DNA of 64,000 bases from Pristiophorus japonicus (GCF_044704955.1 NC_091982.1:167462001-167526000); one strand, 5' to 3'. Positions 20,580 to 41,840 are shown, numbered from the stretch's first letter. The notes: generated by a model from the letters alone, not told the origin. Numbers and translations are program-made.

Positions 20580-21148
20580 AAATAAAAAAAAGGTTTGTCC
20601 TGCATCAGAAAGGCAAGAGGTTATTTTTAATAATTTAAAAAAAAATGTTTTGGCTGCGATACCCACCCCGGGAGTGACCTGGGAACACTTACTGTGTAGG
20701 CCCACACAGGCTGATGTCCCCAATTTCTGACACTGCAGATAGAGTCATGTCCCAGAACAGGTCATTGTCTTCAGGAGACTAGGTGAGAAAATTGTGTGGG
20801 GGAGCGGGAAAGATTCGAGTCTTGATCTGGTTCTCTCAGTGAGAAAGTACCAGTTGATCCTTGTCCATACAGATGCTGACGCACCCTATCAATATTTGTA
20901 GTATTAATAAAACCAAGTGAGTAAATCAGTGATGTGTAGAAGCAGCACCGACACTAAAGAACTAATTTGACTGATGGCGGTACAAAAACATTTAAATTGT
21001 ATGTTTGCACCTTCCTTGCATTTGTGAATGTTCTGATTACCAGGAAACTTGTAGGAAAGCAGACAAAAGAAAAATGATTTTTGAAAGCTTTCTTTGCTGT
21101 GTAGACAGTTGTGGTTTCCTCATTGGTCACAAACAATCCACATCATCT

Positions 21149-21245
21149 TCATCCCCTCTGCTTTTTTTGGGAAAGCTTTTCCACAAGTTTCTTCACTCGT
21201 TCATCCTTCGGATTGGAGCAAATCCATCTATCCTTCAGTCTGAAT
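21149..21245 (-). CDS. CC chemokine copy 1, exon 3
   Basis: Acceptor ttccttttcag; encodes (V)FRLKDRWICSNPKDERVKKLVEKLSQKKQRG*, including the 4th Cys; phase 2 matches exon 2. Confidence 0.95.
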
Positions 21246-21352
21246 CTGAAAAGGAACAGACTAGATTTATTTACAGGGATAACTATATATGAAACAGGCT
21301 GCCAATAAAAAGGTATTTAATGCCAGAGACGGATAGTGTTCTGAGTACTTAC

Positions 21353-21473
21353 ACCACCGCTTTAATCCTGCAGCGACCATCATTTTCCTGTATTTTATAA
21401 TCCTTGATTTTTTTGAAGTTAGGGACCGACTTTGAGTATTTCAGGCAGCAGCTCTTCGGTTGTCCAGTCGGAG
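21353..21473 (-). CDS. CC chemokine copy 1, exon 2
   Basis: Acceptor tttgctttccag, donor gtaagt; encodes (A)PTGQPKSCCLKYSKSVPNFKKIKDYKIQENDGRCRIKAV(V), with the CC motif and 3rd Cys. Confidence 0.95.
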
Positions 21474-24081
21474 CTGGAAAGCAAAAATAAAAGGCTTGTG
21501 ATTCACTGCTTTAAGGAAAGAAAGGGAAAATCCTGGAGTAAATAAATTAAGGTCAGACTGATGAGATGAACTTTTTTTTGTCCGCTGGCTGCAAGGGTCC
21601 TTTGTAAAAAACCAAATCCCAGTGAGCACAAGCCCGCAGCACAAAATTGCCCTCCTTCCGTGCTAAACTGACAATCTCACAGACCGCAGGAGGGCTGGTG
21701 TGGCACAGCAACATATCACATTGCTGCATTAGGGCGTATTCTTCTGAGGTTGAGGCACATTGCTGGAGTAGATTATAGGGAGGTTTAATTGTGCCTTACC
21801 TGACTGCTTGATACTGACATGGGGTCTCTGAAATGGTGTAATTTTCCAGTGCTAAATTTCCCTTACATTGACACAAATATTTTTAAAAAGCAGTTGTTAC
21901 TTTAATGAGCACTTGTGTAGATACCTAGGCTGCCTTGTCTTGTACTAAAAGCAGAATTTAAAAGAGGAAATATACACTGAACATCCTTATAATTTATCTG
22001 CAGTGTCTTCTGAACCAATAAAGATGTAAGACTTAATATACTGAGCATTAAACAGTAGGTTATTGACATCTTGTTGGCCAAAGTACGACCCATAATTAAA
22101 ACATCGCAACTGGGATTGTGCTCAGCTATAAAGAACGACCTTTAAAGTGGTTGTATGACAGGGGACGGTAGAAAAGTGGTTATGTTACTGGACCAGTAAT
22201 CCAGAGGCCTGGACAAATAATTCAGAGACGTGAGTTCAAGTCCCACCATGGCAGCTGGGGAATTTATATTCCGTTAATTAGATAAATCTGAAATAAAAAG
22301 CTAATATCAGTAATGGTGACGATGAAATTATCGGATTGTCATAAAAACCCATCTGGTTCACTAATGTCTTTTTAGGGAATGAAATCTACCATCCTTGCCT
22401 GGTCTGGCCTACATGTGACAGCAATGTGGTTGTCTTTTAACTGCACAGTGAAGTGGCCACTCAGTTGTTAAAAAAAAGGCTACAAAAATTCAATAAAACC
22501 GGACAGACCACCCAGCATCGACCTTGGAAATAACTACAGACACGACAACTGCCCATCCATTCAGTCGAACCTGCAAAGTCCTCCTCACAAATATCTGGGG
22601 AGTTGTGCCAAAGTTAAGGGAGCTGTCCCACAGACTAGTCAAGCAACAGCTTGACATAGTCATACTCACAGAATCATATACTTTTCAGCGAATATCCCAA
22701 AATCTTCCATCACTATCCCTGGGTATGTCCTGTCTCACCAGCGGGACAGAACCACCAGGGGTGGCAGCACAGTGGTATGCAGTCAGGAGGGAGTGGCCCT
22801 GGTAATCCTCAACATTGACTCCGGACCTCATGAAGTTTCAGGTCAAGCATGGGCAAGGAAACTTCCTGCTGATTACCACCCACCACCCTCCCTCAGCTGA
22901 TGAATCAGTACTCCTCCATGTTGAACACCACTTGGAAGAAGCACTGAGAGTAGCAAGGGCAAAGAATGTACTCTGGGTGGGGGAATTCAATGTCCATCAC
23001 CAAAAGTGGCTCGTTAACACCACTACTGACCGAGCTGGCCGAGCCCTGAAAGACATATCTGCCTGACTGGGCCTGCGACAGGTGGTGAGAAAAGCAATAC
23101 AAGGGAAAAACCTACTTGACCTCGTGCTCACCAATTTCCATGTCGCTGATGCATCTGTCCATGACAGCAGGGGTAGCAGTGACCACTGCACAGTAATTGT
23201 GGAGACGAAATCCTGTCTTCACACGGAGGACACTCTCCATTGTGTTGTGTGACAATATCACCATGCTAAATGGGATAGATTCAGAGCAGATCTAGCAGCT
23301 CAAAACTGGGCATCCATGAGGCGCTGTGGGCCATCAGCAGCAGCGGAATTGTATTCCACCACAATCTGTAACCTCATGGCCCGGCATATCTCTCACTCTG
23401 CCATTATCATCAAGCCAGTGGACCAACCCTGGTTCAATGAGAATATGCCAGGAGCAGCACCAGGCATAGCTAAAAAGGAAATGTCAATTTGGGAAAGCTG
23501 CAACACAGGACTAAAAAGCAGAAGCAACATGTTATGAACGGTGCTAAGCGATCCCACAATCAACAGATCAGATCAAAGCTCATGTCCTGCCACATCCAGT
23601 CCTGAATGGTGATGGACAATTAAATAACCAACGGAAGAAGGAGGCTCTGTGAATATCCCCATCCTCAATGATGACGGAGCCCAGCATGTGAGTGCAAAAG
23701 ACAAGGGCGAAACGATTGCAGCCATCTTCAGCCAGAAGTGCCATGTGGGTGATCCATATCGGCCTCCTCCTGAGGTTCTCACCATCACAGAAGCCAGTCT
23801 TTGACAAAAGAGCTGAATTCCAGAGGTGTGGAACGAGTGACTGCTCTTGACATCAAGGCACCATTTGACCAAGTGTTTCATAAATGAGCCCAAATAAAAT
23901 TAAAGTCAATGGGAATCAGGGGAAAACTTTCCACTGGCTGGAGTCATACCTAGCAAAAATTAAGATGGTTGTGTTGGTTGTAGGTCAATCATCACAGCCC
24001 CAGGACATCAATGCAGGAGTTCTTCAGGGCAGTGTCCTAGGCTCAATAATCTTCAGCTGCTTCATCAATGATCTTCCCTCT

Positions 24082-24333
24082 TGTAAAGTCCTGTCCCCTC
24101 AGTACAGATTCACACGAGGCATGTAGTGAAGTCAAGGTCACTCTGGACCTGCACCTTTATTTCACAGCTCTGGAATGCTGCACTTGCCTGAGACCTCTGC
24201 TTATATACCTCTCTCTTGCAAGTGCACCCCTGGTGGTAAGGTATGCTGGTGGTTACAGGTCATATCTTATTACAGTCATGTATAGCATGTTAGGATACAG
24301 TTATATATATATAATAATGTAAGATACATGACA
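24082..24333. mobile_element. Solo LTR
   Basis: TG...CA, 252 bp, perfect 5-bp TSD CCTCT (24077-24081 and 24334-24338), interrupting the LINE RT. Confidence 0.88.
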
Positions 24334-24635
24334 CCTCTATCATAAGATCATAAGTGAGTATGTTCGCTGGTGACTGCAGCACCAGGCATAGCTAAAAAGG
24401 AAGTACGAATTTGGAAAGCTGCAACACAGGACTACATGCATCTAAAAGGTAGAAGAAGCAAGCTATGAACAGAGCTAAGTGATCCCACAATCAACGGATC
24501 AGATCAAAGCTCAGTTCCATTCGCAACTCCTCAGATAATGAAACAGTCCATGCCCACATGCAGTAAGATCGGGACGACATTCAGGCTTGGGCTGATAAAT
24601 GGCAAGTAACATTCACGCCACACAAGTGCCAGGCA

Positions 24636-25835
24636 TCGGTTAAGAAGCTGTCTATCTGTGTCTTAAATTTATTCAATGTCCCGGCTTTCACAGCTCTCCG
24701 AGGCAGCGAATTACATAGATTTACAACTCTATGAGAGAAGAAATTCCTCCTCATCTCAGTTTTAAATAGGCGGCCCATATTCTAAGATTATGCCCTATAG
24801 TTCCAGTCTCCCGTATTAGTGGAAACACCCTCTCTGCATCCACCTTGTCAAGCCCCCTCATAATCTTATACATTTCGATAAGATCACCTCTCATGCTTCT
24901 GAATTCCAATGAGTAGAGGCCCAACCTCCTCAAACTTTCCTCATAAGTCAACCCCCTCATCTCCGGAATCAATCTAGTGAAACTTCTCTGCACTGCCACC
25001 AAAGCAAATATATCCTTTCGTAAATATGGAAACCAAAACTGGACACAGTATTCCAGGTGTGGCCTCACCAATACCCTATATAACTGTAGCAAAACTTCCC
25101 TGCTTTTATACTCCATCCCCTTTGCAATAAAGGCCAAGATTCCATTCACCTTCCTGATCACTTGCTGTACCTGCATGCTAAACTTTTGTGTTTCATGCAC
25201 AAGTACACCAAGGTCCCGCTAAACTGCAGCACTTTGCAATTTTTCTCCATTTAAATAATAACTTGCACTTTGATTTTTTCTGTCAAAGTGCATGACCTCA
25301 TACTTTCTAACATTATACTCCATTTTTGCCCACTCATTTAGGCTGTCTATGTCCTTTTGCAGATTTTTTGTGTCCTACTCACACATTGCATTTCCTCCCA
25401 GCTTTCATCCCGACTCTATTTTCTGTTCGTTAGCCAATCCTCTATCCATGCTAATATATTACCCCAACCCTGTCTTTTATCTTGTGCACTAACCTTTTTT
25501 GTGGCACCTTGTCAAATGCCTTCTGGAAATCCAAATACACCACATTCACTGGTTCCCCTTCATCCACCCTGTTTGTTACATCCTCAAAGAATTCCAGCAC
25601 ATTTGTCAAACATGACTTCCCTTTCATAAATCTATGCTGACTCTGCCTGACCAAATTATGCTTTTCCAAATGTCCTGCTACTGCTTCTTTAATAATGGAC
25701 TCCAACATTTTCCCAACCACAGATTAGGCTAACTGGTCTCTCTAGTTTCCTGCTTTTTGTCTGCCTCATTTTTTTAAATAGCGGCATTACATTTGCAATT
25801 TTCCAATCTGCTGGGACCCCCCCAGAATCCAGGAA
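24636..25835 (-). mobile_element. CR1 LINE fragment in intron 1 of copy 1
   Basis: Minus ORFs 25451-25720, 24751-25200 and 24581-24778 with CR1 RT motifs. Confidence 0.9.
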
Positions 25836-27081
25836 ATGCACTGCTGCAACTTGCCAAAGCTTCTTCGGCAATACCTCCCAAAAACACGACCTCTACCAAC
25901 TAGAAGAAGGGTAGCAGGCACAGGGGAGCACCATCACCTACAACTTCCCGTCCAAGTCACACACTATCCTGACTTGGAAATATATTGCTGTTCTTTCATT
26001 GTCAATGGGTCAAATCCCTGGAACTCCCTCCCTAGCAGCACCGTCAGAGTACGCTCACCACACGGACTGCAGCAGTTGAAGTCGCCGGCTCACCACCACA
26101 TTCTCAAGGGTAATTAGGGATGGGCAATGAATGCCGGCATTGCCAGTGACACCCACATCCCAGGAACTAATTTTTAAAATGACGGAGGTACAAGATGAGC
26201 ACTGATCCCGAAACTGTGCTGTTGATTCTATCTGTCATCGTAAGACAACAATTGCACATGTAGATAAGCACATTAGAACATCTGAAGTTTTAGTGTTGGT
26301 TCAGATTGGCACATGTTCCTTCAATAGCATCTTGCACTGGTCATTGGTGATCCCTTATGACAGCACTTGCTAAAGATTGCAATAGTCCTTGCTGGTATGA
26401 GTAAAGACCAGTACTGAACACAAAGTGTACTGGAACCACACAGACCAGTACCAGGCTAATGATAAATTAATTAGTCTATAGATAACAAAGGTGCAGTAAA
26501 TCTCCAGCACTATTCCGGTAGATAACTCTATGTTAATGTGGTTGTGGTTTTTTTTGGTTTAGAATCAGTTTGTTTCGAAATACACAGTTAGGTGTTGGAA
26601 CCTTGCTAACCATCTCCAGCCATCAATTTTATTTATATCATAATTGCTTTTCGAATAACATGAACCTGAATTGTGCTGTACGCACTTCTATAATAAATGC
26701 TTTATCCCCTTCAGCTAGTTTTTTCCCATGATTTAGTAATTGTTCAATTGAAGAAACTCAATTGAAAAAATGAAACTGCAGATGAACATGAAGGACTGGA
26801 ATATATTCTGTAACTTTTTGGATAAAATGTATCTTGCTAGTTTGCATAAAAACGATTGAAGTTTGCTTATATGTTCAGTACAGTCCTGTTAATGACATTG
26901 TTACACATACTGAAATTCGGGAACCAAAAACTTCAAACCCCATTCAGAGACGGGCAATCTGACAGGATTCTGTAGAATCTACGAGTTGTTACTCTTAAAA
27001 TTTGCTTAAGTTACGAGGTTTCTTAAAAGCAGACAGTAATCAGAACTAAGCAATAAAGAGGTACGGTGGGATTTCACTCAC

Positions 27082-27142
27082 CTGCTAACACAACCAAAGT
27101 GAAGACACTGAGGCCAATCAGTACTACAAGAAATTGTTTCAT
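27082..27142 (-). CDS. CC chemokine copy 1, exon 1 (signal peptide)
   Basis: MKQFLVVLIGLSVFTLVVLA plus G, then donor gtgagt; phase 1 matches exon 2; full protein is 92 aa. Confidence 0.92.
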
Positions 27143-27204
27143 TTTCTCGAAAAAGGTTTCCTCACTGGTGGAACTGATCTGAAAATCTAAACTTTCTTTG
27201 AATC

Positions 27205-27400
27205 GCAGCTTGTATATATCCTCTCAGATGGTCAGCTTCCTTTCTAAATTCCGTGGGTTTACTGTGCCCATGTGGAAAATCTGATAATGTAATCTGATAA
27301 GGTTAGTATACCCTGCCTGTTCATATTTAGCTGTTTCCTTTACATTTCTATTTGCATGAACCAACTATTCACGGAAGGCAGAGGCTTGGAGGCCAATGAC
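27205..27400 (-). promoter_or_regulatory. Proximal promoter of chemokine copy 1
   Basis: TATA-like at ~27212-27219, two TGATAA (~27282, ~27295), octamer ATTTGCAT 27350-27357, GAS TTCACGGAA 27368-27376, CCAAT 27393-27397. Motif matches only. Confidence 0.55.
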
Positions 27401-28619
27401 TGAGCAGCATTTATTTCTCACAAACTTCAGGTTGTTTTAGTTTTGATTGATGGCCAAGTCTCTTTTAACGTGTTCAGAAAAGTTATTTCTACCTGGTTAG
27501 TTTGGTTTCTTAATTTTCTGCAGCTTACCTTCTCAGTATATCTCATTAGCATATCTCTGCTCCTTATCTAAACCACACAACTGCCTGCAAAGAGCAACAG
27601 AGAACAAATTGATAACGCTCCCATACTCAGTGTAAAAGTATGACTATCAGGTTAGAAAATATATTTAGTTCTTTGTAACAAGGTCAACTGAGGTGCAGAA
27701 GTTAGATGCCCACATTGACGGACTTTCATGTCATGCAGTGGAACCTCGTTTATCCTGTAGAACCTATAAGGTTGCAGATAATTGAGGCTCTAGCTGACCC
27801 AACCTTGCCTGGCCTAAAGCTGCATCCAAGGTGGGTAAAAGATTTTCCTGACACAAACCTAAGTTGAAGCCCAAAGCAAAAATAAAAGACTGGATATGGG
27901 TCCCCAAACCAACATGATTCATAGTTGCTGCCCAATATAGTAGAAGTTGCAGCAAAGTGCAGGAAAAAGACCCAAAGTTATAGGCAAGAATTTAACAATC
28001 CCAACTTGATGCTGCAAATCCCACTCATTTGGTGAGCAGACAATAAAGAATACAGATAATGAGATCTTTTTTTCTGTTTCTCTTTCTTTTTTCTTTCTTT
28101 CTACCTTTATTTCTGCCTTTCTTTCTAACATTCCACATTCTAACCATTCTATTGGTAAAGAATGCTCACATGAATTCCCTATTAGATTCATTAGTGACTA
28201 TCATATTTATTCTCCAGAACTGTTAATTCATATTTTAATTTGAAGAACAATATGATTAAAAGTAGTCAATTGATTGGACTAAGGAAGGAAGGATTGGATT
28301 ATACAGGATACCTTCTCTATAATTGTGTAGAGAGCTGTACACATGGAGTGTTGCAAAGTACAGGGGCTTTAAAAGATTGTTTGTTTAATGTGTTCTCTAT
28401 TGTAAAGGGAATCATGGGCAGTGTGGTAGATGAGGGCCTTCTGCTATGGAACTAGGAGCGTTGCTTTTTGAACACTGCATCCATTGGCAATATGGGCTGA
28501 CCATGTGCCATAATGCGAGGTCAGCTCCTTTATACAATATCGCCGTGCTCCTGGCATACAGCGCATGAAGCATAAGGGTAGGTATTGGTTTCTGGAGGTT
28601 TTGAGGCTCCAGTTTCAAT

Positions 28620-29825
28620 GGTGAGAATTTTAACGTTGAAGAGATCATGGATTTCGGTGCAGTTGCGCTGTTAAGTTCACCGAAAATGTCAGCGTGTCTT
28701 GAAGTCAGCACCAATCCTGCCGACTTCCGGGATTAACACAGGCACGTTCAAACTGGTTACGTGTAACCCTCTGAAGAAAAGTGGTATACCACTTTAAATA
28801 TGCAAATTGTTCCAGTTTCCTGTTATTTCAAACTCCTTAAATCATGGCGAGAACACAAAGCAAATTCACGGGGCTCATTAAAATTCAGGTAAATACTGCA
28901 ATCAATACTCAGTGCTTACAGCTACTTTTTTACCTACCACTAGGAAAGGGATTGGTCACAGTACTTGTGAAGAGAGGTTAGTTTCTACATGTTAGTCACT
29001 TGAGACTCAGGTCAGGATGTGTGGTGCCGTGGCTGCCTTAGATTGGACATTGGAGGAGGATGACGATGAGCATCAGGAGGAGCAGCAGCCTGCTGTTGAG
29101 AGAACTGCAGGTGTTGGATAGAGAGGGGAGCAGCGTCGGGGTGGAACTGGCAGGAGGCACTACCCATGTAACTGTGTACAGCCAGAGGCTGAGCTCCCTT
29201 GGCCTGTGGGAAGAGCAGTGCCTCCGAAGGCCGAGGTTGTCGTGTCAGGTGGTGGCAAAATCCTGCAGGCTCCTAGAAGAAGACCTGCTAACTGCTGGAC
29301 CTGGTGTCCACACATTATCAGTGGTTGGCAAGGTCGGGAGGTAGTGCAGAAGGTCACGGAGGTTGGGAAGAAGAGTGCCGGAGTCTGGGCGAAGATCGGG
29401 TGGGGCCCGTGGAGAAGGACATGGGGAGGAGGTCGCATCGCAGAGAGAGTTGGTGTTCGATCAGCGGGGAGGTTAACAGGGTAGATTGGGAGACGGGAGG
29501 GAAGCACTCCTGCTCCTGGACGACAAGCAGTGCTGGAAAGGCACTTACCTGTTCCATCTAGTAATTCTCCGCTGTCTTCAGCTGTCCCAGAGGTCTGGGA
29601 AACCCGGCAAGCCAGTGTGAAAGTTGGAACAGCGATACAATCTAAAGCACGCTGTCTCATTATAATATTTTAATGAGGGATCCGTCTCCTGAAAGTGGAT
29701 TGGTCGCCCGCCCCACGCATCTCCGTCAAAAGCAGATGTCGGCAGGTTGGGTTCCAATTTGAAATTGTTTGAATCAGAGCTTCCCACCTGACTCAAACTG
29801 GGGGGTTTGGTTAAAATTATTCCCT
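28620..29825 (+). mobile_element. Degenerate Harbinger-derived element
   Basis: EEQCLRRPRLSCQVVAKSCRLLEEDLL...TLSVVGKV resembles the Harbinger transposase N-terminus; imperfect TIRs ggtgagaattttaac / gttaaaattattccc. Confidence 0.65.
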
Positions 29826-29949
29826 GCATCACTCAGTTCAGCAGTTGATTTAGACTCAAGGGAGGATTTTAACTCCCGCCACTTAGCAGTAATAAGGTAG
29901 AACATGTTAAAATGTTGAGGCTCTTTTACCTAGTCCTATACTGGCCCAT

Positions 29950-31148
29950 TAGGGGATGGTAGCATAATGATAAAGTTATTGGACCAATAATCCAGAGGGT
30001 TGCACAAATGATCCAGAGACGTGAGTTCATAAACCCATCATGGGAGCTGGGAATTTAAATTCAGTTAATTAAATAAATCTAGAATTAAAAGGTAATATCA
30101 GTAATGATGACCATGAAACTACCAGATTGTTGAAAAAAAACCCCATCTGGTTCACTAATATCCTTAGAGAAGGAAATCTGCTGTCCTTACCTGGTCTGGT
30201 CTATATGTGACTTCAGACCCACATCAATCTTAAATGGCCAAGCAAGCCGTTGAATTGCAACAAAAAGTGACAGAAAACAATAAGACCGGACGGACTTTGG
30301 CACCGGCTTTGGACATGATAACGGAGCACCAAGCCTAGTTGACCCTGAAAAGTCCTCCTCATCAACATCTGGGGAGGTGCCAAAATTGGGATAGCTGTCC
30401 CACAGACTAGTCAGGCAACAGCCTGACACTTTCACATTCATAGAATCATACCTTTCAGTAAATGTCCCAAACTCCTCCATTACCATCCCTGGTTATGTAC
30501 TGTCCCACTAGCAGGACAGTGGGAGGGAGTGGGCCTGAGACTCCTCAACATTGACACCAGACCACATAAAGTCTCATGGCTTCAGGTCAAGCACTGGCAA
30601 GGAAACCATCTGCTGATTACCACATAACGCCTTCCCTCAGTAAATGAATCAGTACTCCTCCATGTTGAATACTACTTGGAAGAAGCACTGAGAGTAGCAA
30701 GGGCACAGAATGTACTCTGGGTGGGGGACTTCATTGTCCATCACCAAGAGTGGCTCGGTAGCACCACTACTGACTGAGCTGGCCGAGTCCTGAAGGACAC
30801 AGCAGCCAGATTATTGCTGTGGCAGATGGTGAGAGAACCAACACGAGGGAAAAGCCTACTCGAACTCGTCCTCACCAATCTACTTGTCGTAGATGCATCT
30901 GTCCATGACAGTATTGGAGCAGCGACTACTGCACAGTTCTTGTGGAGACAAAATCTAGTCTTCATCTGGGGAGGTGCCAAAATTGGGAGAGCTGTCCCAC
31001 AGACTAGTCAGGCAACAGCCTGACATTTTCACACTCACAGAATCATACCTTTCAGTAAATGTCCCAAACTCTTCCATTACTAGAGGACACCCTCTATCGG
31101 GTTGTGTGGCAGTACTGCCGTGCTAAATGAGATAGATTCAGAACACAA
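29950..31148 (+). mobile_element. 5' part of tRNA-headed LINE (APE domain)
   Basis: Homologous to 22160-23290; fused directly to the CR1 that starts unit B. Confidence 0.85.
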
Positions 31149-32620
31149 GGAAAACTTTAGAACCCAGCAAAGGTTGACCAAAACATTGATAAAAAGGAGA
31201 AAATAGAATATGAAACCAAACCAGCAATAAATGTAGAAACAGATTGTAAGAGCTTCTACAAGTATGTAAAAATGAGGAGAATAACTAAAAGTAAGCATTG
31301 GTCCTTTTGTGGCTGAGCCAGGAGAAATTATAATGGGGAGTAAGGAAATGGCAGAGACATTAAACAAAAATGTTGTGACACAAAAAACAAACAAAAATAG
31401 TGGGGAACCAAAGGGCAAATGAGAGTGAGGAACATAAAGTAATTAAGATCAGAAGTAAAAAGGTACTTGAGAAACTAATGGGACTAAAAGTCGACAAATC
31501 CCCTGTACATGATGGCCTGCATCTTAAGATTCTAAACGAGGTTGCTGCAGAGATAATGGATGCATTGGTTGTGATCTTTCAAAATGTCCTAGATTCTAGG
31601 CACCAGCAGATTGGAAGGTAGCAAATATAACTGCGCTATTCAAGAAAGGAGGGAGAGTGAAAACAGAAGACTACAGGTGAGGTAGCCTGACATCAGTTGT
31701 CGGAAAAATGCTGAAATCCATTATTATGGAAGTAGTAACATGGCAGAGTCAACATGGTTTTATGCAAGGAAAATTGTGTTTAATGTATTTATTAGAGTTT
31801 TTTTGAAGATAAAACTAGCAGAGTAAAAGATAAAGGGGAACCAGTGGATGTAGTATATTTGGATTTCCAAATGGCATTTCATAAGATGCCACATAAAAGG
31901 TCATTATGTAAGATAAGGGCTCATGGGGCTGGGGGTAATATATTAGCAAGGATGGAGGAAAACGGTTCATTTTCAGGTTGGCAGGCTGTAACTAGTATGG
32001 TGCTGCAAGGATCAGTGCTTGGGCATCAGCTATTTACAATCTATATTAATGACTTAGATGAAGGGACCAAGTGTAATGTATCCAATCTTGCTGATGATAC
32101 AAAGCTAGGTGGGATTGTAGGTTGTGGAGGACACAAAGAGCCTGTAAAGTGATACAGACAGGTTAAGTGAATGGGCAATAAGGTGACAGATGGAGTATAA
32201 TGTGGGGAAATGTGAGGTTATTCACTTTGGTCGGAAGAATAGATGAACAAAATATTTTTTAAATGGTGAGAAACTATTAAATGTTGGTGTTCAGAGAGAT
32301 TTAGGTGTCCTCGTAAAGGAAACACAAAGGTTCACGAGATTGATTCCTGGGATTAGAGGGTTGTCCTATGAGGAGAGATTGAGTAGACTGGGACTATACT
32401 CTGTGGAGTTTAGAAGAATGAGAGGTGATCTCATTGAAACATACAAGATGCCGAGGGGCATTGATAGGGTAGATGCTGAGAGGTTGTTTTCACTGGTGAG
32501 AGAATCTAGAACTAGGGGAACAATCTCAGAAGAAGGGATTGACCATTTAAGACTGAGAAATGTCTTCACTCAGAGGATTGTGAATCTTTCAAATTCTCTA
32601 TCCCAAATAGTTGTGAATGC
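31149..32620 (+). mobile_element. CR1 LINE ORF2 remnant (paralog of 11232-15428, without the nested inserts)
   Basis: ORFs 31400-31621, 31844-32152 and 32340-32657; shares variant motifs with copy A (FQMAFHKMPHK, GHQLFTI). Confidence 0.9.
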
Positions 32621-33737
32621 TGAAATGTTTTTCTTTCTCATTCATTTCCCTATATGACTGTTCTCCTTTTATTGTGGGATTTGCAAGTGTCTCCATTACA
32701 TTCTCTTTCTTCCTCTCACTCTCCAACAAGAGAAATGCTTGGGAGTTACCATTACGGTCCACAGATGCACGAGGGTGCAGGACTACAATCTCATGCTGAG
32801 ACTCCTGCCGAGTGTGGGAGAGGTGTTGGATCGGAAAAGGTCAGCATGATACAACTTTCCCCTATTGTACAGTAGACAGCACATCAGGCCCTGCTGAACA
32901 CGTTTTGTGACTCAACTGATGTTGTGGCAGGAAGCTCCATGGAATCATTTGACACCTACAGGAATCAATCCAGCCTCAAGCTCACAACCTCAGCCCACAC
33001 TCTCCACAAAGCTTCTTTCCCCACTTTGCACCCAGTTTTGTTTGTGTTTGCTCACTTTTTCACCCTCGTATTGCAGAGTCAATCGACTCTATTTATGGTT
33101 GTTGGGAAACTACTGTGACTGAATGGGGTGGAATTCCTGTGGATAGAGGTAGGAGTTGTCCTTTTTCATTTTCTTCTCCCATTCTCCTTTCCTGTATGTC
33201 TCTTTCCCTCTTCATTACCCGCCAGTATCTTCAGCGGAGGGTTAGTAGAAACCCTGGAGAAATGGCATCACTGGAAAGACTAAATAAACCTGTGCATGAA
33301 ATGGAGCAGATCAGCTTCTTCGTGCATCTGGGTGCAAACGTTGGTGAAATCACAAATTTAGGAATTTTTAGAATGCTACATAATTAACTGCAAAATGTTC
33401 AGTGATGTCTGCTCTTCCCCATCACTTACTGAAGAAAGAAGTTATCTTTACATGTGTCTCTCACCATGAGAAGTGTTGGATGAAATCCAAGAAACATAGA
33501 AGTTTTCAGCACAGAAGGAGGTCATTCAGTTATTGCATCTGTGCCAGCTCTTTTCTTGTAAAATCTAAAACTAAACTCACTGCCCCACTATCTCTTCATA
33601 GCCCTATATCCGAGTCTGCATCAAATTTCCTCAACAATACAATGGTTTCACTGGGGGAAGGGAGCTGCACTCGCAGTGACTGCGGGTCTGTGTTAGGCTG
33701 AAGCATTGTCGCCCCAATTCTATGAACTGTGCAAACT

Positions 33738-34190
33738 GGGAGAGCAGCTGTGGCTCAGTGTGTTGCACTCTCGCCTCTGGATCAGAAGGTTGTGTGGTCA
33801 CAGTCCCAATCCAGAGACTTGAGCCCAAATCTACAGGCTGTCATTCCAGTGCAGTATTGAGGGAATGCTGCACTGTCAGAGGTGCCGTCTTTCAGATGAG
33901 ACGTTAAACCGAGGACCCATCTGCCTTCTCAGATGATCCCATGGCACTATTTCGAAGAAGAGCAGGAGAGTTATCCCCAGTGTCCTGGCAAATATTTATC
34001 CCTCAATCAACATAACAAAAAAAGTTTATCTGGTAATTAGCACATAGTTGTTTGTGGGAGTTGCTGTGTGCAAATTGGCTGCCACGTTTCCCACATTACA
34101 ACAGTGACTACACTCCAAAAGTACTTCATTGATTGTAAAGTGCCTTGAGACATCCAGTGGTCATGAAAACGGCCATATAAACAAAGTTTA
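33738..34190 (+). mobile_element. Near full-length DeuSINE (tRNA head + Deu domain)
   Basis: A-box-like gtggctcagtg; Deu-domain-like cactgtcagaggtgccgtctttcagatgagacgttaaaccgagg; 3' end ...ggccatataaacaaag. Confidence 0.85.
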
Positions 34191-36818
34191 TACTTGAACA
34201 ATGTTTTTACATTGGGTACTGTCTGGAAATAATTTGCATACTGATGATTGAAGAATTGTGACAAATCCTGTGCTATTTCCTCTCCGACTTTCAACAGCCA
34301 TGGGTATGTGCCATAAGGCCCAACGACTTTTGCAGCTTGAGATGTGCTATTTTTTCAGCAACCCATTGAAAATACATTCTGGTATTTGAAAATAAAATTT
34401 TCAACACTTGAAATAAAAAGAATAAATTGCAGCTCTTACACATCCTCCACCACTGTTCACTTTTTCAAAGAAGGGTGATAGAGCATTCACCCATTAACTA
34501 TATTCCTGCCTGACACCAATTTATTTTTTTCCCATTCTATTAGTTTGCTTTACATTCCAGCTGATAAAGATATGATCCTTAAAACGTTATGTTATCTCTC
34601 TCTCTATTGGCCACACCAACATTGAATTAGTATCAACTAACTGTAAGTAAATTGCTGCTAATTCTCATATTATCCATTGCTTTGAAAGTCTTAGCTAATC
34701 CACAAATCTAATCTGAACCACTTTCGGTGCTCATCAAAACATTCCTCTTTTGTTCCCTTGTAGCGCTAAGCACTTGTATTGGTGTCTGGGTATGAGTTTG
34801 CCAGGCCAAAGAAAGCTGGACTTTCCACTGGAAATCACCTCAGCCTCTGGAGAAACAGCATTACCGGCTAAGAACGCTATTTATTTGAGTTGTGGGGGGT
34901 TTCCCCGATCACTAGCCATGGTTACAAGAAAGTGGGACAACATCTTGGAAATTTCAGGTACAAGTAACTCTGCATTAACCAGGGACTGGCCTTGGGACCT
35001 CTCTGGTCTACATAACTTCGACCGCAGCACATGATCCATCCACCAATTGAACTGGCAGCAAACACAGGCGGTTTGAATTGGTTGCTCAGGAAAGTCTTAG
35101 TGGCTTACGTTTTAAAAGCTGATGGCATTACTACCCCCGTTAGTGTGTTTGATGATACTTTCGTCACAGAGCCTTGTTGTAGTAATACTGTAGAAACCAC
35201 GTTGCAGCTTGTGCTGGTTAGAAAACACGAGTAAATGGGAGGACTCAGAGGAAATGCCCTTTTGTGACATTGTAGTGACGTGTCAGTGCATGAGACTGAA
35301 CTGTAGGTTTTTAACCAGCAGATAATTTCTGTGTATAAACAGTGACTGCCAGTGTTGAAGAGAAGTAACAGAACTGAAAGATAATCGAAAGATAATCATC
35401 TCCCTAAGTATGAGGATGTTATTAGTACAATAAAGCACTAAATTACAACTTGTTTATCATCTTTGGAAATATTAACTGTACCAGTGGATTATGTTTAGTT
35501 GTATTCAATTACAGCTTAAGTTTGTGACAAAAAATACTTCACTAACCCAGTTATAAACAGAACAAAATCAATTTATGTAGCAAATATCATGTGTTTGGAC
35601 CAAATAGTATTTATATTTAAATTGGATGAGATTTACATGAGGACAAGGCTGATTTTTTGTACCTCTTCACAGCTGCACTTTACACCAGTGAGCCCGAGAA
35701 CTACAGGTGTAAAGGGTCCCACAATTCTGTGCTTTGAGCCAAGGAAACAAAGGCAGCAGATTGGAGAATTCTGGCATTGTTACCTGGCAAGATGTTTCAG
35801 TATTGTCACTGCCTCAAATCTCCTCAACTTCCAGCAGTCAGTGATGTTCCTTCAGCCATGCTGATAGACGGTGCCAAATCTGGGATAAGAAGTTTCGGAG
35901 TAAATGTTCCCTCCCCCTGTCCCCTCCCCTGTCGCTCCACCCTCCAAGGAGATTTCCAAACAGATGAGAGCAAGCAGCCAGTTTGCCTTCCACTTAATTA
36001 CATTTAATTTAAGTTTCCATTCAACACAATTGTTTTATTATCACATGGAATCCTGACACAACGGGTCGACTGAGAAAAATAATGGAACATGAGGTGCAAG
36101 TGTTACAAATCAGGCTGGTAATTGGGTATTAAAATTCTTTGGGGTATTTATTTACATATCTTTTAAGATTAAATGGAGCCATAAAAATTTAGGCAGTGAT
36201 TGGATTCCCAGCTTGGGTTATAGCAAAGGCTAATAATAGAAAACAAAGACAATCTGTTCAACAAATTATAAATATATATATATACACACTTTAGAAACTT
36301 GATTAAACAGGCGCAGGCAAATGAAAAACAGAATAAATAACAGAACAGGTCACCCTTTAAACATAGTCCCTGGTTTGGGGGACATTAGAAAATACAGCGA
36401 AAAAATAGCTTTGAATAATCATTTTAAAATTCGGCGGCCATTTCTATGTGCTTCACAGTGCAATGACTCCATGAGTTACTGTGCATCATGTCATGAACAT
36501 AATCAGCATTGTTCTCTTCAATCAATTTTAAAGGGCCACAGACTTCATTCAATCTGTTTCCAAAATATGTCAACAAACAAAAATGGTTTCCCCTGCCTGT
36601 CAGTGAAGACACTTTAAATGTAAGAAGATGTAGTAAAGGATCATTGTTTTATTGACGTATGTCTATGGGCTAATATAGCTATAATTCTATGTTTTACATA
36701 GGACAGCTATAGGATGTTATATGGAAGTAAGTTACAATGTAACACATTTAACAAAATAGCACTTTGTAAATGCATATGTCATTCACCATCAATCAGTAAT
36801 TTAAACGGCTATCTCCTT

Positions 36819-36851
36819 TTTATTTTCATTTTCAAATTTAGTTTTTTTATT
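36819..36851 (-). terminator. Candidate polyadenylation signals of chemokine copy 2
   Basis: AATAAA on the minus strand at 36819-36824 and 36846-36851, at positions equivalent to copy 1. Confidence 0.5.
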
Positions 36852-37419
36852 AAGGTTTGTCCTGCATCAGAAAGGCAGGAGTTTTTCTTTGTTACAAAAA
36901 TAAAATGTGATGTTTTGGCTGCGATACCCACCCCTGAGTGGCCTGGGAACACTTACTGTGTAGGCTCACACAGACTAAGATCCCCAATTTCTGACACTGC
37001 AGATAGAGTCATGCCCCAGCACAGGTCATTGTCTTCAGGAGACTAGGTGAGAAAATTGCGTGGGGGAGTGGGAAAGATTCGACCCTATGGTCTGGTTCTC
37101 TCAGTGAGAAAGTACCAATTGTTCCTTGTCTATACAGAGGCTGACACACCCTATCGATATTTGTAGCATTAATAAAACCAAATGAGTAAATCAGTGACGT
37201 GTAGAAGCAGCACCGACAGTAAAGAACAGCATCAAATTTGACTGATGGCGGTTCAAAAAATTGAAATTGTATGTTTGCACCTTCCTTGCATTTGTGAATT
37301 TTTTGATGACCAGGAAACTTGTAGGAAAGCAGACATTAAAAAAAAAGATTTTTGAAAGCTTTCTTTGCTGTGCAGACAGTTGTGGTTTCTTCATTGGTCG
37401 CAAACAATCCACATCATCT

Positions 37420-37516
37420 TCATCCCCTCTGCTCCTTTTGGGAAAGCTTTTCCACAAGTTTCTTCACTCGTTCATCCTCTGGATTAGAGCAAATCCACCT
37501 GTCCTTCAGTCTGAAT
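37420..37516 (-). CDS. CC chemokine copy 2, exon 3
   Basis: Acceptor ttccttttcag; encodes (V)FRLKDRWICSNPEDERVKKLVEKLSQKEQRG*. Confidence 0.95.
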
Positions 37517-37619
37517 CTGAAAAGGAACAGGTTAGATTTATTGATAGGAATAACTACAGGTGCCTTATAAGGGTATTTAATGCCAGGCTCCAGAGATGGA
37601 CAATGTTCTGAGTACTTAC

Positions 37620-37740
37620 ACCACCGCTTCAATCCTGCAGCTGCCATCATTTTCCTGTATTTTATAATCCTTGATTTTTTTGAAGTTAGGGACCGACTTT
37701 GAGTAATTCAAGCAACAGCTCTTCTGTTGACCAGTAGGAG
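37620..37740 (-). CDS. CC chemokine copy 2, exon 2
   Basis: ag/gtaagt boundaries; encodes (A)PTGQQKSCCLNYSKSVPNFKKIKDYKIQENDGSCRIEAV(V). Confidence 0.95.
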
Positions 37741-38424
37741 CTGGAAAGCAAAAATAAAAGGCTTGTGATTCACTGCTTTAAGGAAAGAAAGTGAAAATCC
37801 TGCAGTAAATAAATTTAAGACCAGACTGATGCAATTAACATGTTTTAGTCCGCTGTCTGTAAGGGTCCTTTGTGAAAAACCAAATCCCAGTGAGCACGAG
37901 CCCACAGCACAAAATTGCCCTCCTTCAGTGCTAAACTGACAATCTCACAGACCGCAGGAGGGCTGGTGTGGCACAGCAACATATCACATTGCTGCAGTAG
38001 GAGGCTGAGGCACATTGCTGGAGTAGATTAGAGGGAGGTTTAATTGTGCCTTACCTGACTGCTTGATACTGGCATTGGGTGCCTGAAATCTGAAATAGTA
38101 TAATTTTCCAGTGCTAAATTTCCCTTACATTAATTGACACACAATTATTTTTAAAAATCTATTACTTTAATGAGCACTTGTGTAGATACCTAGGCTGCCT
38201 TGTTCTGTACTAAAAGCAGAATTTAAAAAGGAAATGTACATTGAACATCCTTATAATCTATCTGGTGATTCTTCTAAACCAATAAAGATATAAGACTTAA
38301 TAGACTGAGCATCAAAAAATGTATTATTGATATCTTGTTGACCAAAGTGCTGACCATTAATTAAAACATCCCAACTTGTATTGTGCTCAGCTTTAAATAA
38401 CAGCTTTTAACATTAATGTATGAC

Positions 38425-40660
38425 AGGGGATGGTAGGAAAGTGGTTATGTTACTGGACCAGTAATCCAGAGGCCTGGACAAATAATCCAGAGACACGAGT
38501 TCAAATCCCACCATGGCAGCTGGGGAATTTAAATTCAGTTAATTAGATCAATCTGAAATAAAAAGCTAATATCAATAATGTTGGCTATGGAACTATCGGA
38601 TTGGCATAAATTCCCATCAGGTTCATTAATATCCTTTTAAGAATGAAATCTGCCATCCTTACCTGATCTGACCTACATGTGACAGCAATGTGGTTGTCTT
38701 TATACTGCACACTGAAATGGCCACTCAGTTGTAAATAAATGCTACAAAAATCAGTAAAACCAGATGGATCATCCAGCATCGACCTTGGAACTAACGACAG
38801 ACACAACAATGGCCCACCCATTCAGTCGATCCTGCAAAGTCCTCCTCACAAATATCTGGGGAGTTGTGCCAAATTTGGGAGAGCTGTCCCACAGACTAGT
38901 TAAGCAACAGCTTGACATAGTCATACTCATAGAATCATAATTTTCAGCTAATGACCTTAACTCCTCCATCACTATCCCACCAGCAGGACAGACCTACCAG
39001 CGGTTGTGGCACTGTGCTATACAGTCGGGAGGGAGTGACCCTGGGAGTCCTCAATATTGACTCAGGACCCCATGAAGTTTCATGGCTTCAGGTCAAGCAT
39101 GGGCAAGGAAACTTCCTGCTGATTACCACCAACCACTCTCCCTCAGTTGATGAAGCAGTACTCCATGTTGAACACCACTTGGAAGAAGCACTGAGTATAG
39201 CAAAGGCACAGAATGTGCTCTGGGTGGGGGAATTCAATGTCCATCACCAAGAGTGGTTCGTTAACACCACTACTGACTGAGCCCTGAAGGACATATCTGC
39301 CAGACAGGGCCTGCGACAGGTGGTGAGAAAACCAACACAAAGGAAAAACCTACTTACCTCGTGCTCACCAATGTCCATGTCGCTGATGCATCTGTCCATG
39401 ACAGCATGGCTAGCAGTGACCACTGGACAGTCATTGTGGAGACAAAATCCTGTCTTTACACGGATGACACTCTCCATTGTGTTGTGTGACAATACCACCA
39501 TGCTAAATGGGATAGATTCAGAACAGATCTAACAGCTCAAAACTGGGCATCCATGAGGCACTGTGGGCCATCAGCAGCAGTAGAATTGTATTCCACAACA
39601 ATCTGTAACCTCATGGCCCGGCAAATCCCTCACTCTACCATTATCATCAAGCCAGTGAACCAACCCTGGTTCAAAGAGAATATGCCAGGAGCAGCACCAG
39701 GCATAGCTAAAAATGAGGTGCCAATTTGGGGAAGCTGCAAGACAGGACTACATCATATAAAAAGCAGGAGTAGCATGCTATAAACAGAGCTAAACAATCC
39801 CACAATCAAATCAAAGCTCTGAAATCCTACCACATCCAATCGTGAATGGTGGTGGACAATTAAATAACGGAAGGAGGAGATTCTAATACTATCGCCATCT
39901 TCAATGGTGACGGAGCCCAGCACGTGATTGAAAAAGACAAGGCCGACGTGATTGCAACCATCTTCAGCCAGAAATTCCATGTGCATGATCCATATCGGCC
40001 TCCTCCTGAGGTCTCCACCATCACTGCAGCCAGTCTTGAGACATTGACTATCGCCAACAAGCAAAAGTCTAATCAACGGCATTACCATTACCAAATCCCC
40101 CACCATCAACATCCTGGGGGGGTCACCATTGATCAGAAACTTAACTGGACCAACCACATAAATACTGTGGCAACAAGAGCAAGTCGGAGGCGTGTTCCAA
40201 CAACACTCAAGAAGCTCAACACCATCCAGGACAAAGCAGCCCACTTGATTGGCAACCCATCCAACACCTTACAACACACTTTCTCCACCACCAGTGCACC
40301 GTGGCTGCAGTGTGTACAACATGCACTGCTGCAACTCGCCAAAGCTTCTTCGGCAGCACCTCCCAAACCTACGACCTCTACCACCAAGGACAAGGACAGC
40401 AGGTGCATGGGAACACCATGCCTACAGGTTGCCCTCTAAGTCACACACCATCCCGACTTGAAAATATATTGCCATTCCTTCATCGTTGATGGGTCAAATT
40501 CTTGGAACTCCCTCCCTAACAGCACTGTTGGAGTACGCTCACCACACGGACTGCAGTGGTTCAAGAAGCCAGCTCACCACGACCTTCTCAAGGGCAATTG
40601 GGGATGGGTGATAAATGCTGGCATTGCCAGTGACACCCACATCCCAAGAATGAATTTTAA
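38425..40660 (+). mobile_element. tRNA-headed LINE in intron 1 of copy 2 (paralog of 22160-26170)
   Basis: Same insertion site and both ends shared with the copy in unit A; different internal deletions. Confidence 0.85.
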
Positions 40661-41497
40661 AAATGACGGAGGTACAGGATGAGCACTGATCCCGACACCA
40701 TGCTGTTGATTCTATCTGTCATCGTAAGACAACAATTGCATATGTAGATAAACACATTAGAACATCTGAAGTTTTAGTGTTGGTTATGGTTGGCACATGT
40801 TCCATCAGTAGCGTCTTGCACTGGTCATTGGTGATCCCTCATGACAGCACTTGCTAAAGATTGCAATAATCCTTTCTGGTATGAGTAAAGACCAGTACTG
40901 GAACCACACAGACCAGTACCAGGCCGTCGATAAATTAATTAGTCTATAGGGAACGAAGGTGCAGTAAACCTCCAGTTCTATTCCAGTAGATAATTATGTT
41001 AATGTGGTTGTGGGTTTTGTTGGTTTAGAATCAGTGTGCTTCGAAATACACAACCTTGCTAACCATCTCCAGCCACCAATTTTATTTATATCATAATTGC
41101 TCTTCCAATAACATGAAATTGATTTGTGCTGTACACACTTTTATAATAAATACTTTATCCCCTTCAGCTAGTTTTTTTCCCCATGGTTTAGGTAATTGTT
41201 CAATCGAAAGAAATGAAACCGCTGAGGAACATAAAGGATTGGAATATATTCTGTAACTTTTGGATAATATATGTCTTGCTAGTTCGCAAAAAAACTATTG
41301 AAGTTTGCTCGTATGTTCAATACAGTCCTGTAAATGACATTGTTACACGTACTGAAATCCACTCAGACAGAAAATCTGATAGATTCTACAGAATCTAAGA
41401 GTTGTTAGTCTTAAAATTTGCTTAAGTTACAAGGTTTCTTAAAATCAGACAGTAAACTGAAATAAGCAATAAAGAGATACAATGGGATCTCACTCAC

Positions 41498-41558
41498 CTG
41501 CTAACACAACCAAAGTGAAGACACTGAGGCCAATCAGTACTACAAGAAATTGCTTCAT
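41498..41558 (-). CDS. CC chemokine copy 2, exon 1 (signal peptide)
   Basis: MKQFLVVLIGLSVFTLVVLA plus G, then donor gtgagt; one synonymous difference from copy 1. Confidence 0.92.
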
Positions 41559-41619
41559 TTTCTCGAAAAAGATTTCCTCGCTGGTGGGACTGATCCAAAA
41601 ATCTAAACTTTCTCTGAAT

Positions 41620-41840
41620 CGCAGCTTGTATATATATATCCTCTCAGATGGTCAGCTTCCTCTCTAAATTCCGTGAAGGGCGGTGGTGATGGGGAGGTGG
41701 GTTTACTGTGCCCATGTGGAAAATCTGATAAGGTAACCATATTAGTACACCCTGCCTGCTCATATTTAGCTGTTTCCTTTACATTTCTGTTTGCATGAAC
41801 CAACTATTCACGGAAGGCAGAGGCTTGGTGGCCAATGACT
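41620..41840 (-). promoter_or_regulatory. Proximal promoter of chemokine copy 2
   Basis: TATA repeat ~41628-41639, GAS TTCCGTGAA 41669-41677 next to GGGCGG, one TGATAA, GAS TTCACGGAA 41807-41815, CCAAT 41832-41836. Motif matches only. Confidence 0.55.

What the first reader, a model, noticed from the sequence alone, without database searches (positions are those of the whole stretch)
21149..41558. Hidden pair of intact three-exon CC chemokine paralogs
Seen: two 92-aa minus-strand genes with canonical splice sites, compatible phases (1 and 2), a 20-aa hydrophobic leader, adjacent CC plus two further Cys, a TATA-like box and polyA signals. By hand count the CDSs differ by 11 synonymous and 6 non-synonymous changes, with no stops or indels. 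Established: this exon layout is standard for CC chemokines. Inference: both genes are under purifying selection; the Y-x-x-Q-xxx-G-x-C-x-I-x-A-V-V-F segment suggests the CCL19/20/21/25-like group, possibly a lineage-specific chondrichthyan expansion.
Basis: partly seen in the sequence, partly recalled or inferred. Interest (0 to 1): 0.8.

Follow-up and report, generated by a model that had tools for sequence, protein, structure and literature searches.

The report
Shark CC chemokine tandem gene array
These are two real, intact genes for immune-cell-attracting chemokines in a shark, part of a larger run of copies, and they sit at the chromosomal spot where frogs keep the unusual shape-shifting chemokine XCL1, so they may be living four-cysteine relatives of its forerunner.

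Summary
They are true paralogs, not haplotypes.

They are not hidden and not just a pair. Gene B equals a UniRef entry ('eotaxin-like', Pristiophorus japonicus). Both are 2 of 7 intact tandem copies, plus broken ones, of a CC lineage found across sharks, rays and chimaera. Array-wide constraint is weak (dN/dS 0.67), with no sign of positive selection.

They are not CCL19/20/21/25 proper: they lack the Asp before CC, and the genome has separate candidates for those genes.

The new point is synteny. The order is EphA4-like gene, this array, a broken CC gene, five CCL20-like genes, PPP2R3A. That matches the frog order Eph-like, XCL2/XCL1, CCL34, CCL20b/a, PPP2R3A, and the teleost CCL32 slot. The best PDB match by sequence and fold is the reconstructed XCL1 ancestor.

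The tree cannot resolve the sister group. No frog XCL sequence, expression data or receptor test was available. Verdict: ordinary chemokine genes with a testable lead on the origin of XCL1 and the unknown ligand of shark XCR1 (about 30%).

The parts
27082..27142 (-). Gene A exon 1, coding part (signal peptide, 20 codons + 1 nt)
21353..21473 (-). Gene A exon 2 (N-terminus, CC motif, N-loop, third Cys)
   Evidence: Pfam IL8, E 9.7e-08
21149..21245 (-). Gene A exon 3, coding part (fourth Cys, C-terminal helix, stop)
27213..27218 (-). Gene A TATA-like box
   Evidence: consensus match only
20574..20579 (-). Gene A polyA signal AATAAA (a second at 20547-20552)
   Evidence: consensus match only
41498..41558 (-). 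Gene B exon 1, coding part (signal peptide)
37620..37740 (-). Gene B exon 2
   Evidence: Pfam IL8, E 2.6e-08
37420..37516 (-). Gene B exon 3, coding part; spliced product equals UniRef100_UPI00398F378A
41629..41638 (-). Gene B TATA-like box
   Evidence: consensus match only
36846..36851 (-). Gene B polyA signal AATAAA (a second at 36819-36824)
   Evidence: consensus match only
18361..29895 (.). Duplicated unit around gene A: 18361-23801 and 25836-29895 match the gene B unit at 86.8% and 84.9%; 23802-25835 has no counterpart in the B unit and partly matches dispersed repeats of the window
   Evidence: self-BLAST
34615..44377 (.). Duplicated unit around gene B (34615-40037 and 40321-44377)
   Evidence: self-BLAST

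Best explanation
A and B are functional genes for secreted CC chemokines. They are 2 of 7 intact copies (plus at least 2 broken ones) of a tandem birth-and-death array that expanded recently in this shark lineage from a CC chemokine lineage shared by sharks, rays and chimaera. That lineage occupies the Eph-proximal end of the ancient PPP2R3A - CCL20 - CCL34 - (CCL32/XCL) - EphA4-like cluster. SHOWN: gene anatomy, predicted fold, selection, array, family range, gene order. INFERRED from established chemokine biology: a leader of about 20 residues is removed; disulfides C29-C55 and C30-C70 lock a three-strand-plus-helix fold; the basic surface (pI 9.3-10.1) binds glycosaminoglycans to form a gradient; the core docks the N-terminus of a chemokine GPCR and the 8-residue N-terminus activates it, drawing leukocytes. 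The mature chain would begin X-Pro in 23 of 24 family members, a DPP4/CD26 trimming site (recalled), suggesting tuning by N-terminal clipping. My best single guess for the receptor is an XCR1-type receptor (about 0.3-0.35), not CCR6/7/9.
For: Exact open CDSs and splice signals. Pfam IL8. AlphaFold model: leader helix 5-18, strands 43-49, 59-64, 68-71, helix 76-91, pLDDT about 90 over the domain; Foldseek matches chemokines at rmsd 1.0-1.8 A for the CCL20/CCL17/7JH1 rows. 4 of 7 array models equal UniRef proteins. dN/dS below 1 for A/B; signal peptide 0.09. 17 non-array relatives from chimaera, sharks and rays, one clade with the array at 95/90 (84). Neighbours: EphA4-like exon at C6:166.96 Mb and PPP2R3A-type exon at 169.23 Mb; five CCL20-like genes at 168.31-168.50 Mb; one further, frame-broken CC gene at 168.13 Mb. 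The same order is given for frog and zebrafish in PMC3568907 supplement 6, and the cluster and its PPP2R3A flank in PMC8811506.
Against: No RNA evidence was obtained, so expression and splicing of gene A rest on sequence alone. Mature-domain dN/dS over the array is 0.72, so some copies may be drifting; two copies have lengthened C-termini (106 aa) and one has lost the TATATA match. The tree leaves the sister group open. About 357 kb between the array and the middle gene, about 190 kb towards the Eph gene and about 700 kb towards PPP2R3A were covered only by the genome-wide Pfam and protein searches, which missed the middle gene. Signal cleavage and disulfides were not computed directly.
Confidence: 0.85

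Rival explanations
1. The family is the shark co-ortholog of the gene that became frog XCL1/2 (and teleost CCL32): a living two-disulfide, non-fold-switching relative of the XCL1 precursor and the missing ligand of shark XCR1. This is a sharper version of the best explanation.
For: Same slot as frog XCL1/2 and zebrafish CCL32/XCL32. The reconstructed XCL1 ancestor 7JH1 is the top PDB hit for exon 2 (E 3e-06, next 0.012), for gene B (46.5 against 32.7 bits), for the family profile (62.5 against 49.3), for the chimaera member (47.2 against 31.7) and by fold. In 3 of 3 control exons from other CC genes of this genome it ranked only 5th, 10th and 9th. Elephant shark has 3 XCR1 genes and no XCL gene, and PMC3568907 says a CC chemokine is the likely fish XCR1 ligand.
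Against: Reconstructed ancestors are consensus-like and attract orphan sequences; whether shark sequences of this family were in that reconstruction is unknown, since the paper was not held. No native XCL1 appears among the 60 PDB matches at E<=0.01 (32) or the best 60 of 95. The fold margin over CCL20 is negligible (E 2.9e-05 against 7.1e-05). CCL28 is second with the profile. Frog and human XCL fall on separate branches in PMC8811506, so the frog slot may not lead to amniote XCL1. Grass carp CCL32a does not pick the array first in the genome (E 4.9, second of 4 weak matches). Tandem clusters can refill a slot independently.
Confidence: 0.3
2. The family is a chondrichthyan-only offshoot of local CCL20/CCL34-type duplication with no one-to-one bony-vertebrate ortholog; its place next to the Eph gene reflects only where duplicates accumulate.
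For: All 21 hits of the family profile search are chondrichthyan. Database names are inconsistent (eotaxin-, CCL17-, CCL20-, CCL28-, CCL8-, CCL16-, CCL2-like). AU does not reject family + CCL20-like (p=0.39). The Atlas structure neighbour is a 'CCL20-like' cluster.
Against: The word-based search is insensitive to distant relatives, so the lack of bony hits is weak. The family lacks the Asp before CC in 23 of 24 members, unlike all 5 neighbouring CCL20-like genes. Gene order is conserved with frog over five positions.
Confidence: 0.45
3. The genes are orthologs of CCL19, CCL21, CCL25 or CCL20 proper, or of CCL27/28, and act through CCR7, CCR9, CCR6 or CCR10.
For: CCL21 is the best natural PDB hit of exon 2. 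CCL20, CCL21, CCL28 and CCL19 rank high for the full protein. CCL28 shares the Q-x-x-D-G-x-C loop and the short beta2-beta3 spacing. Carp 'CCL25-like' repeats score. AU does not reject family + CCL19-like (p=0.24).
Against: The genome has better candidates elsewhere: CCL19/21-like on C1 (82), a CCL25-like candidate on C18 (label by recalled pattern), CCL20-like at C6:168.3-168.5 Mb (81). No Asp before CC in 0 of 7 copies and an 8-residue N-terminus, whereas CCL20 needs D5 and a short N-terminus for CCR6 (PMC7295996). The short spacing is absent in the chimaera and one sawfish member, so it is probably derived. I did not locate the CCL27/28 genes of this genome.
Confidence: 0.15
4. A and B are two haplotypes of one gene placed in tandem by the assembler, or non-expressed recent duplicates.
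For: No read-depth or RNA test could be run.
Against: Non-coding DNA of A and B differs at 133 of 1538 aligned sites (8.6%), the duplicated blocks are 85-87% identical and intron 1 differs by 1.85 kb. By contrast, 3 of 3 duplicate-contig pairs in this assembly are 99.6-99.8% identical. Non-synonymous change (6 of 218 sites) is below the non-coding rate (p=0.001).
Confidence: 0.03

Closest known systems
UniRef100_UPI00398F378A 'eotaxin-like' (Pristiophorus japonicus) and its relatives P0006-P0008, P0014, P0018, P0019, P0025-P0038
   Same: Gene B is this protein letter for letter; three other array copies equal P0006-P0008; relatives share leader, X-Pro start, Cys spacing and the Q-x-x-x-x-x-C-x-x-x-A-V segment.
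   Different: Gene A and two other intact copies were not among the hits. The automatic names disagree with each other and carry no orthology.
Xenopus xcl1/xcl2 in the ppp2r3a - ccl20a/b - ccl34 - xcl cluster (PMC8811506; PMC3568907 supplement 6)
   Same: Same flanking genes and same relative slot next to the EphA4-like gene.
   Different: Shark genes keep all four cysteines.
Reconstructed XCL1 ancestor (PDB 7JH1)
   Same: Top hit by sequence and by fold (43% identity over 63 columns, rmsd 1.6 A); adjacent CC preceded by a basic-Ser motif; single canonical fold.
   Different: A computed ancestor, not a gene. The shark proteins have one more residue in the 30s loop and most have one fewer between beta2 and beta3.
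Teleost CCL32 group (CCL32/XCL32/CXCL32)
   Same: Eph-proximal position in the same cluster and a tendency to tandem expansion.
   Different: No supported clade with the family (84, 112); carp members are long, multi-domain proteins.
CCL20 (and CCL19/21/25)
   Same: Same fold, same exon phases, same cluster as the CCL20-like genes.
   Different: No Asp before CC, longer N-terminus, separate orthologue candidates in the same genome.

Membership tests
CC chemokines | IL8/chemokine domain above the curated cut-off | tested here: met
   exon 2 at 32.5 and 34.4 bits against 21.3; P0005 carries PF00048
CC chemokines | Adjacent CC plus two further Cys | tested here: met
   C29, C30, C55, C70 in 7 of 7 copies
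CC chemokines | Three coding exons, introns in phases 1 and 2 | tested here: met
   that this layout is the family norm is recalled
CC chemokines | Three-strand sheet plus C-terminal helix | tested here: met
   predicted model
CC chemokines | Cleaved signal peptide | tested here: inconclusive
   hydrophobic leader, modelled as a low-confidence helix (52), dN/dS 0.09 (78); no signal-peptide predictor was run
CC chemokines | Expression and GPCR-mediated chemotaxis | not testable with these tools
   needs RNA reads and bench assays
CCL20 proper | Asp directly before CC and a five-residue N-terminus (CCR6 contact) | tested here: not met
   0 of 7 copies and 1 of 17 relatives have the Asp; N-terminus of 8 residues; requirement from PMC7295996 passages
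CCL20 proper | Lies in the PPP2R3A-flanked CCL20 cluster of non-amniotes | tested here: met
   but five better CCL20-like genes lie in the same cluster (79, 81)
CCL19/21/25 | Asp before CC, and being the best match to these genes in the genome | tested here: not met
   C1:10.19/10.24 and C18:33.66 genes carry the Asp; the C1:10.24 exon hits CCL21/19 first
XC chemokines (XCL1/2) | Loss of the first and third Cys (one disulfide) | tested here: not met
   all four Cys present
XC chemokines (XCL1/2) | Amniote locus beside DPT/TBX19 | tested here: not met
   dermatopontin-family hits on C11, C15, C32 and TIPRL on C11, none on C6; no IL8 match on C11 among 69; TBX19 not searched
XC chemokines (XCL1/2) | Frog locus between CCL34/CCL20/PPP2R3A and the EphA4-like gene | tested here: met
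XC chemokines (XCL1/2) | Clade with frog or amniote XCL; signalling through XCR1 | not testable with these tools
   no XCL sequence was returned as a usable protein; no receptor assay
Teleost CCL32 group | Clade with CCL32 sequences | tested here: inconclusive
   not recovered, not rejected (AU p=0.41)

The most novel reading that the evidence does not exclude
This chondrichthyan family is the surviving two-disulfide ortholog of the gene that gave rise to XCL1/lymphotactin, still sitting in the ancestral cluster, and it is the unknown ligand of shark XCR1. It would give a natural, living pre-fold-switching state to set beside reconstructed ancestors, and push an XCR1-based killer-lymphocyte to dendritic-cell signal back to the root of jawed vertebrates.
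Probability: 0.3. Interest if true: 0.7.

Novelty: new member of a known kind. Interest (0 to 1): 0.36.

Why it matters
As genes, they are ordinary: tandem chemokine expansions are common and gene B is already in the databases. The value lies in placement. Shark CC chemokines of this lineage carry contradictory automatic names, and fish XCR1 has no known ligand (PMC3568907). The conserved gene order offers a concrete, cheap test: add these proteins to a tree of the cluster's genes and assay them on shark XCR1 paralogs. If positive, it would date the XCL1-XCR1 axis to the first jawed vertebrates and supply natural four-cysteine relatives for studying how XCL1 became a fold-switching protein. 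It also indicates that the non-amniote CCL20 cluster is at least as old as the shark/bony split.

Tried and rejected
RNA evidence: no RNA holder was listed for window 20500-21600, so no reads were laid; this is no evidence either way.

Amniote XCL1 locus: rejected; DPT-family and TIPRL hits are not on C6.

Amniote CCL20 site: SLC19-family genes lie at C6:256-262 Mb with a weak, below-cut-off SPHKAP-type hit at 262.4 Mb (37, 38), about 90 Mb away, and no IL8 match there among 69 (68).

Positive selection across the 7 copies: pairwise mature dN often exceeds nearby non-coding distance, but M1a against M2a gave p=0.84 (whole) and 1.0 (mature) in my own codon-model script; rejected. Mosaic non-coding distances suggest gene conversion, which clouds such tests.

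Sister group: three AU tests (CCL20-like, CCL19-like, CCL32) all unrejected. That tree used 34 rows after dropping 4 array copies and 12 other rows from the 49 and adding the middle gene.

ORF listing of 100 kb on each side of the array showed no host gene (49). 20 ORFs and fragments were scanned by Pfam: only retroelement domains, a weak Ig match, the IL8 match of the middle gene and one noise-level hit. Only 12 of 141 unique ORFs from 168.11-168.31 Mb were among them.

The ESM Atlas gave only generic IL8 clusters for gene B and nothing usable for the middle gene (107).

No chemokine-receptor complex was predicted: no receptor sequence was at hand and such pairs tend to pass by likeness to solved structures.

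The primary XCL1-ancestor paper was not held. Earlier scan findings: none.
Full report
1. Observation. Both genes are as described. Gene A (27142-27082, 21473-21353, 21245-21149) and gene B (41558-41498, 37740-37620, 37516-37420) give 92-aa products with GT-AG introns in phases 1 and 2, and differ by 11 synonymous and 6 non-synonymous changes. Exon 2 passes the Pfam IL8 cut-off in both, and exon 3 covers the rest of the profile below cut-off. AlphaFold on a 7-sequence alignment gives the chemokine fold with pLDDT about 90 over the domain; all listed Foldseek matches are chemokines.

2. Not hidden, not a pair. The best database hit, UniRef100_UPI00398F378A ('eotaxin-like', Pristiophorus japonicus), equals gene B letter for letter. 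Searching the own genome with exon 2 gave 9 matches: 7 in an array on C6 at 167.37-167.65 Mb, one orphan exon 2 on C3, and one CCL20-like gene. Searching with exon 1 gave 10 matches: the 7 genes, an exon 1 at 167.31 Mb without its donor site, and an exon 1 at 167.54 Mb whose upstream region is split in two. All 7 complete copies have open frames (91-106 aa) and four Cys; 4 of 7 equal UniRef proteins; 6 lie on the minus strand and 1 on the plus strand. Gene A and two others were not among the hits.

3. Paralogs, not haplotypes. The duplicated blocks are 84.9-86.8% identical and intron 1 differs by 1.85 kb. Aligned non-coding sites differ at 133 of 1538. Three of three duplicate-contig pairs in the assembly are 99.6-99.8% identical. 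Read depth was not tested.

4. Selection. For A/B, NG86 gives 0.13 and a codon model 0.19, below 1 at p=0.002. This is the lowest of 21 pairs. Over all 7 copies dN/dS is 0.67; it is 0.72 for the mature chain and 0.09 for the leader, and a class with dN/dS above 1 is not supported (p=0.84, my own implementation). Variable sites: 1 of 20 in the leader, 5 of 8 in the N-terminus, 6 of 12 in the N-loop, 13 of 20 in the helix. This fits a birth-and-death array with partly relaxed constraint.

5. Family. A profile search returned 21 proteins of 1111 candidates, all chondrichthyan, with contradictory names; an exhaustive search with exon 2 added a whale shark fragment and weaker bony-fish CC proteins. 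The 7 copies and 17 relatives form one clade at 95/90 in a 49-row tree and 93/91 in a 34-row tree. The 7 copies group together at 80/85 against other species, which points to a recent expansion. The sister group is unresolved, and AU tests reject none of CCL20-like, CCL19-like or CCL32 (p=0.39, 0.24, 0.41).

6. Not CCL19/20/21/25 proper. The genome holds two CCL19/21-like genes on C1, one CCL25-like candidate on C18 and five CCL20-like genes on C6. One exon of each kind was tested against PDB: the C6 exon hits CCL20 first, the C1 exon CCL21/19, the C18 exon CCL21 weakly; the CCL25 label is from a recalled pattern. All 8 carry Asp before CC; 0 of 7 copies and 1 of 17 relatives do. In CCL20 that Asp and a short N-terminus are needed for CCR6 (PMC7295996, passages).

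7. Synteny. An Eph ligand-binding exon lies at C6:166.96 Mb, best matching EphA4; a second EphA4-type exon at 217.2 Mb shows it is one of two. A PP2A B'' exon at 169.23 Mb matches the alpha subunit better than beta (51.6 against 42.6 bits). Between the array and the CCL20-like genes, exon-level profiles found one more CC gene at 168.13 Mb that the genome-wide Pfam search had missed; its exon 2 has a frame break and its exon 3 matches IL8 at E 0.001. I call it CCL34-like by position and recalled pattern only; the tree does not place it. The order is EphA4-like, array, middle gene, CCL20-like x5, PPP2R3A, over about 2.3 Mb. Supplement 6 of PMC3568907 (parts 2 and 3 read as machine-extracted text) gives for X. 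tropicalis PPP2R3A 0.1, CCL20a 0.2, CCL20b 0.3, CCL34 0.3, XCL1 0.4, XCL2 0.4, ENSXETG00000018943 0.4 Mb. The last appears beside zebrafish EK1 in the extracted layout, so its Eph identity is my reading of that layout. For zebrafish it gives CCL20/CCL34, then XCL32/CCL32, then EPHA4B or EK1. PMC8811506 (passages) confirms the frog cluster and PPP2R3A flank, and reports that frog ccl34 groups with frog xcl and that frog and human XCL branch apart.

8. The XCL lead. The reconstructed XCL1 ancestor (7JH1) is the top PDB hit in 4 of 4 sequence searches with family members and first by fold, narrowly. It ranked 5th, 10th and 9th for three control exons; two of those controls have true human orthologs in PDB, so the control is lenient. 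Native XCL1 is absent from the lists shown. Elephant shark is listed with 3 XCR1 genes and no XCL, and the ligand of fish XCR1 is called unknown and possibly CC-type. Early XCL1 ancestors had a single chemokine fold (PMC11751857, passages). Position plus resemblance make the family a fair candidate, at about 0.3. They do not prove orthology.

9. How it works (inferred). Secretion through the leader, two disulfides, glycosaminoglycan binding by a basic surface (A: 21 Lys+Arg against 7 Asp+Glu, pI 10.1; B: 16 against 10, pI 9.3), then two-site engagement of a chemokine GPCR and leukocyte chemotaxis. Four of the 6 A/B replacements lower the charge of B by removing Lys, one removes Arg, and K32N creates an N-x-S site, so the two may differ in matrix retention. 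X-Pro at the predicted mature start in 23 of 24 members suggests DPP4 trimming (recalled). The 3' regions hold 2-5 ATTTA motifs per 700 nt, compatible with an unstable transcript but not tested against chance.

10. Literature and novelty. Ten searches listed no paper that places a shark chemokine in this slot; the library lacks most subscription journals, so this does not show it is unpublished. Seen: PMC3568907 (passages; supplement 12 whole, supplement 6 parts 2-3, term searches of the others; its .doc supplement could not be read), PMC2416438 (passages, supplement term search), PMC10792014, PMC11751857, PMC4690017, PMC7295996, PMC10854834, PMC10450919 and bioRxiv 10.64898/2026.08.16.745091 (passages), PMC8811506 (passages, supplement term search). 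Dishman et al. 2021 was not seen, and its supplement bears on whether the 7JH1 match is circular.

11. Verdict. Real, ordinary CC chemokine genes, a new member set of a known kind, with one worthwhile and directly testable evolutionary lead. Interest 0.36.

Noticed in passing
L142:6666-6786 and L143:442-520 (G000:C6, about 168.127 and 168.130 Mb, + strand): A further CC chemokine gene between the array and the CCL20-like genes, missed by the genome-wide Pfam search. Exon 2 has a frame break (pseudogene or assembly error). It occupies the CCL34 position of the frog cluster.
   Followed up: partly
L029-L033 (G000:C6:168.31-168.50 Mb): Five CCL20-like genes with Asp before CC, forming one clade at 100/98. 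No chemokine match was seen at the SLC19A3-type site on the same contig where amniotes keep CCL20.
   Followed up: partly
L008/L034 (G000:C3:243.388 Mb): An orphan copy of exon 2 and most of intron 2 of the array gene on another contig, without splice acceptor or exon 3, next to a GA-rich repeat.
   Followed up: partly
L020, L021, L022, L023 (G000:C6:167.29-167.31 and 167.54 Mb): Broken array copies: an exon 1 without its donor site, a partial exon 3 with a stop about 20 kb away, and an exon 1 with intact donor whose upstream region is split by about 4.5 kb; no exon 2 found for them.
   Followed up: partly
L024 and L025 (array copies at 167.37 and 167.42 Mb): Two copies run past the usual stop to 106 aa. 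One extension is Met/Lys-rich and ends with an extra Cys; several ray relatives also end in a Met-rich tail.
   Followed up: no
L062 (G000:C6:167241500-167251499): LTR retroelement or endogenous retrovirus-like stretch with RT, RNase H and integrase domains, plus long downstream ORFs, one with a weak Ig-domain match.
   Followed up: partly
window 59864-63265, minus strand: LTR retroelement pol region: an 865-aa open frame with RT, RNase H and integrase domains and an upstream protease-like frame.
   Followed up: partly
G000:C2:241.14-241.41 Mb and C2:315.15-315.99 Mb: Two further tandem arrays of CXC-type chemokine genes, one with near-identical copies about 30 kb apart.
   Followed up: no
L124 / L117-L118 (G000:C20:97.78 Mb and C2354): A divergent CC chemokine on a long branch with no clear relatives in the trees, duplicated on a small contig at 99.8% identity.
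   Followed up: no
L150:4766-9134 and L155:3446-5797: Stretches of 2-4 kb open in several frames with no Pfam match for the one ORF tested, probably tandem repeats.
   Followed up: no
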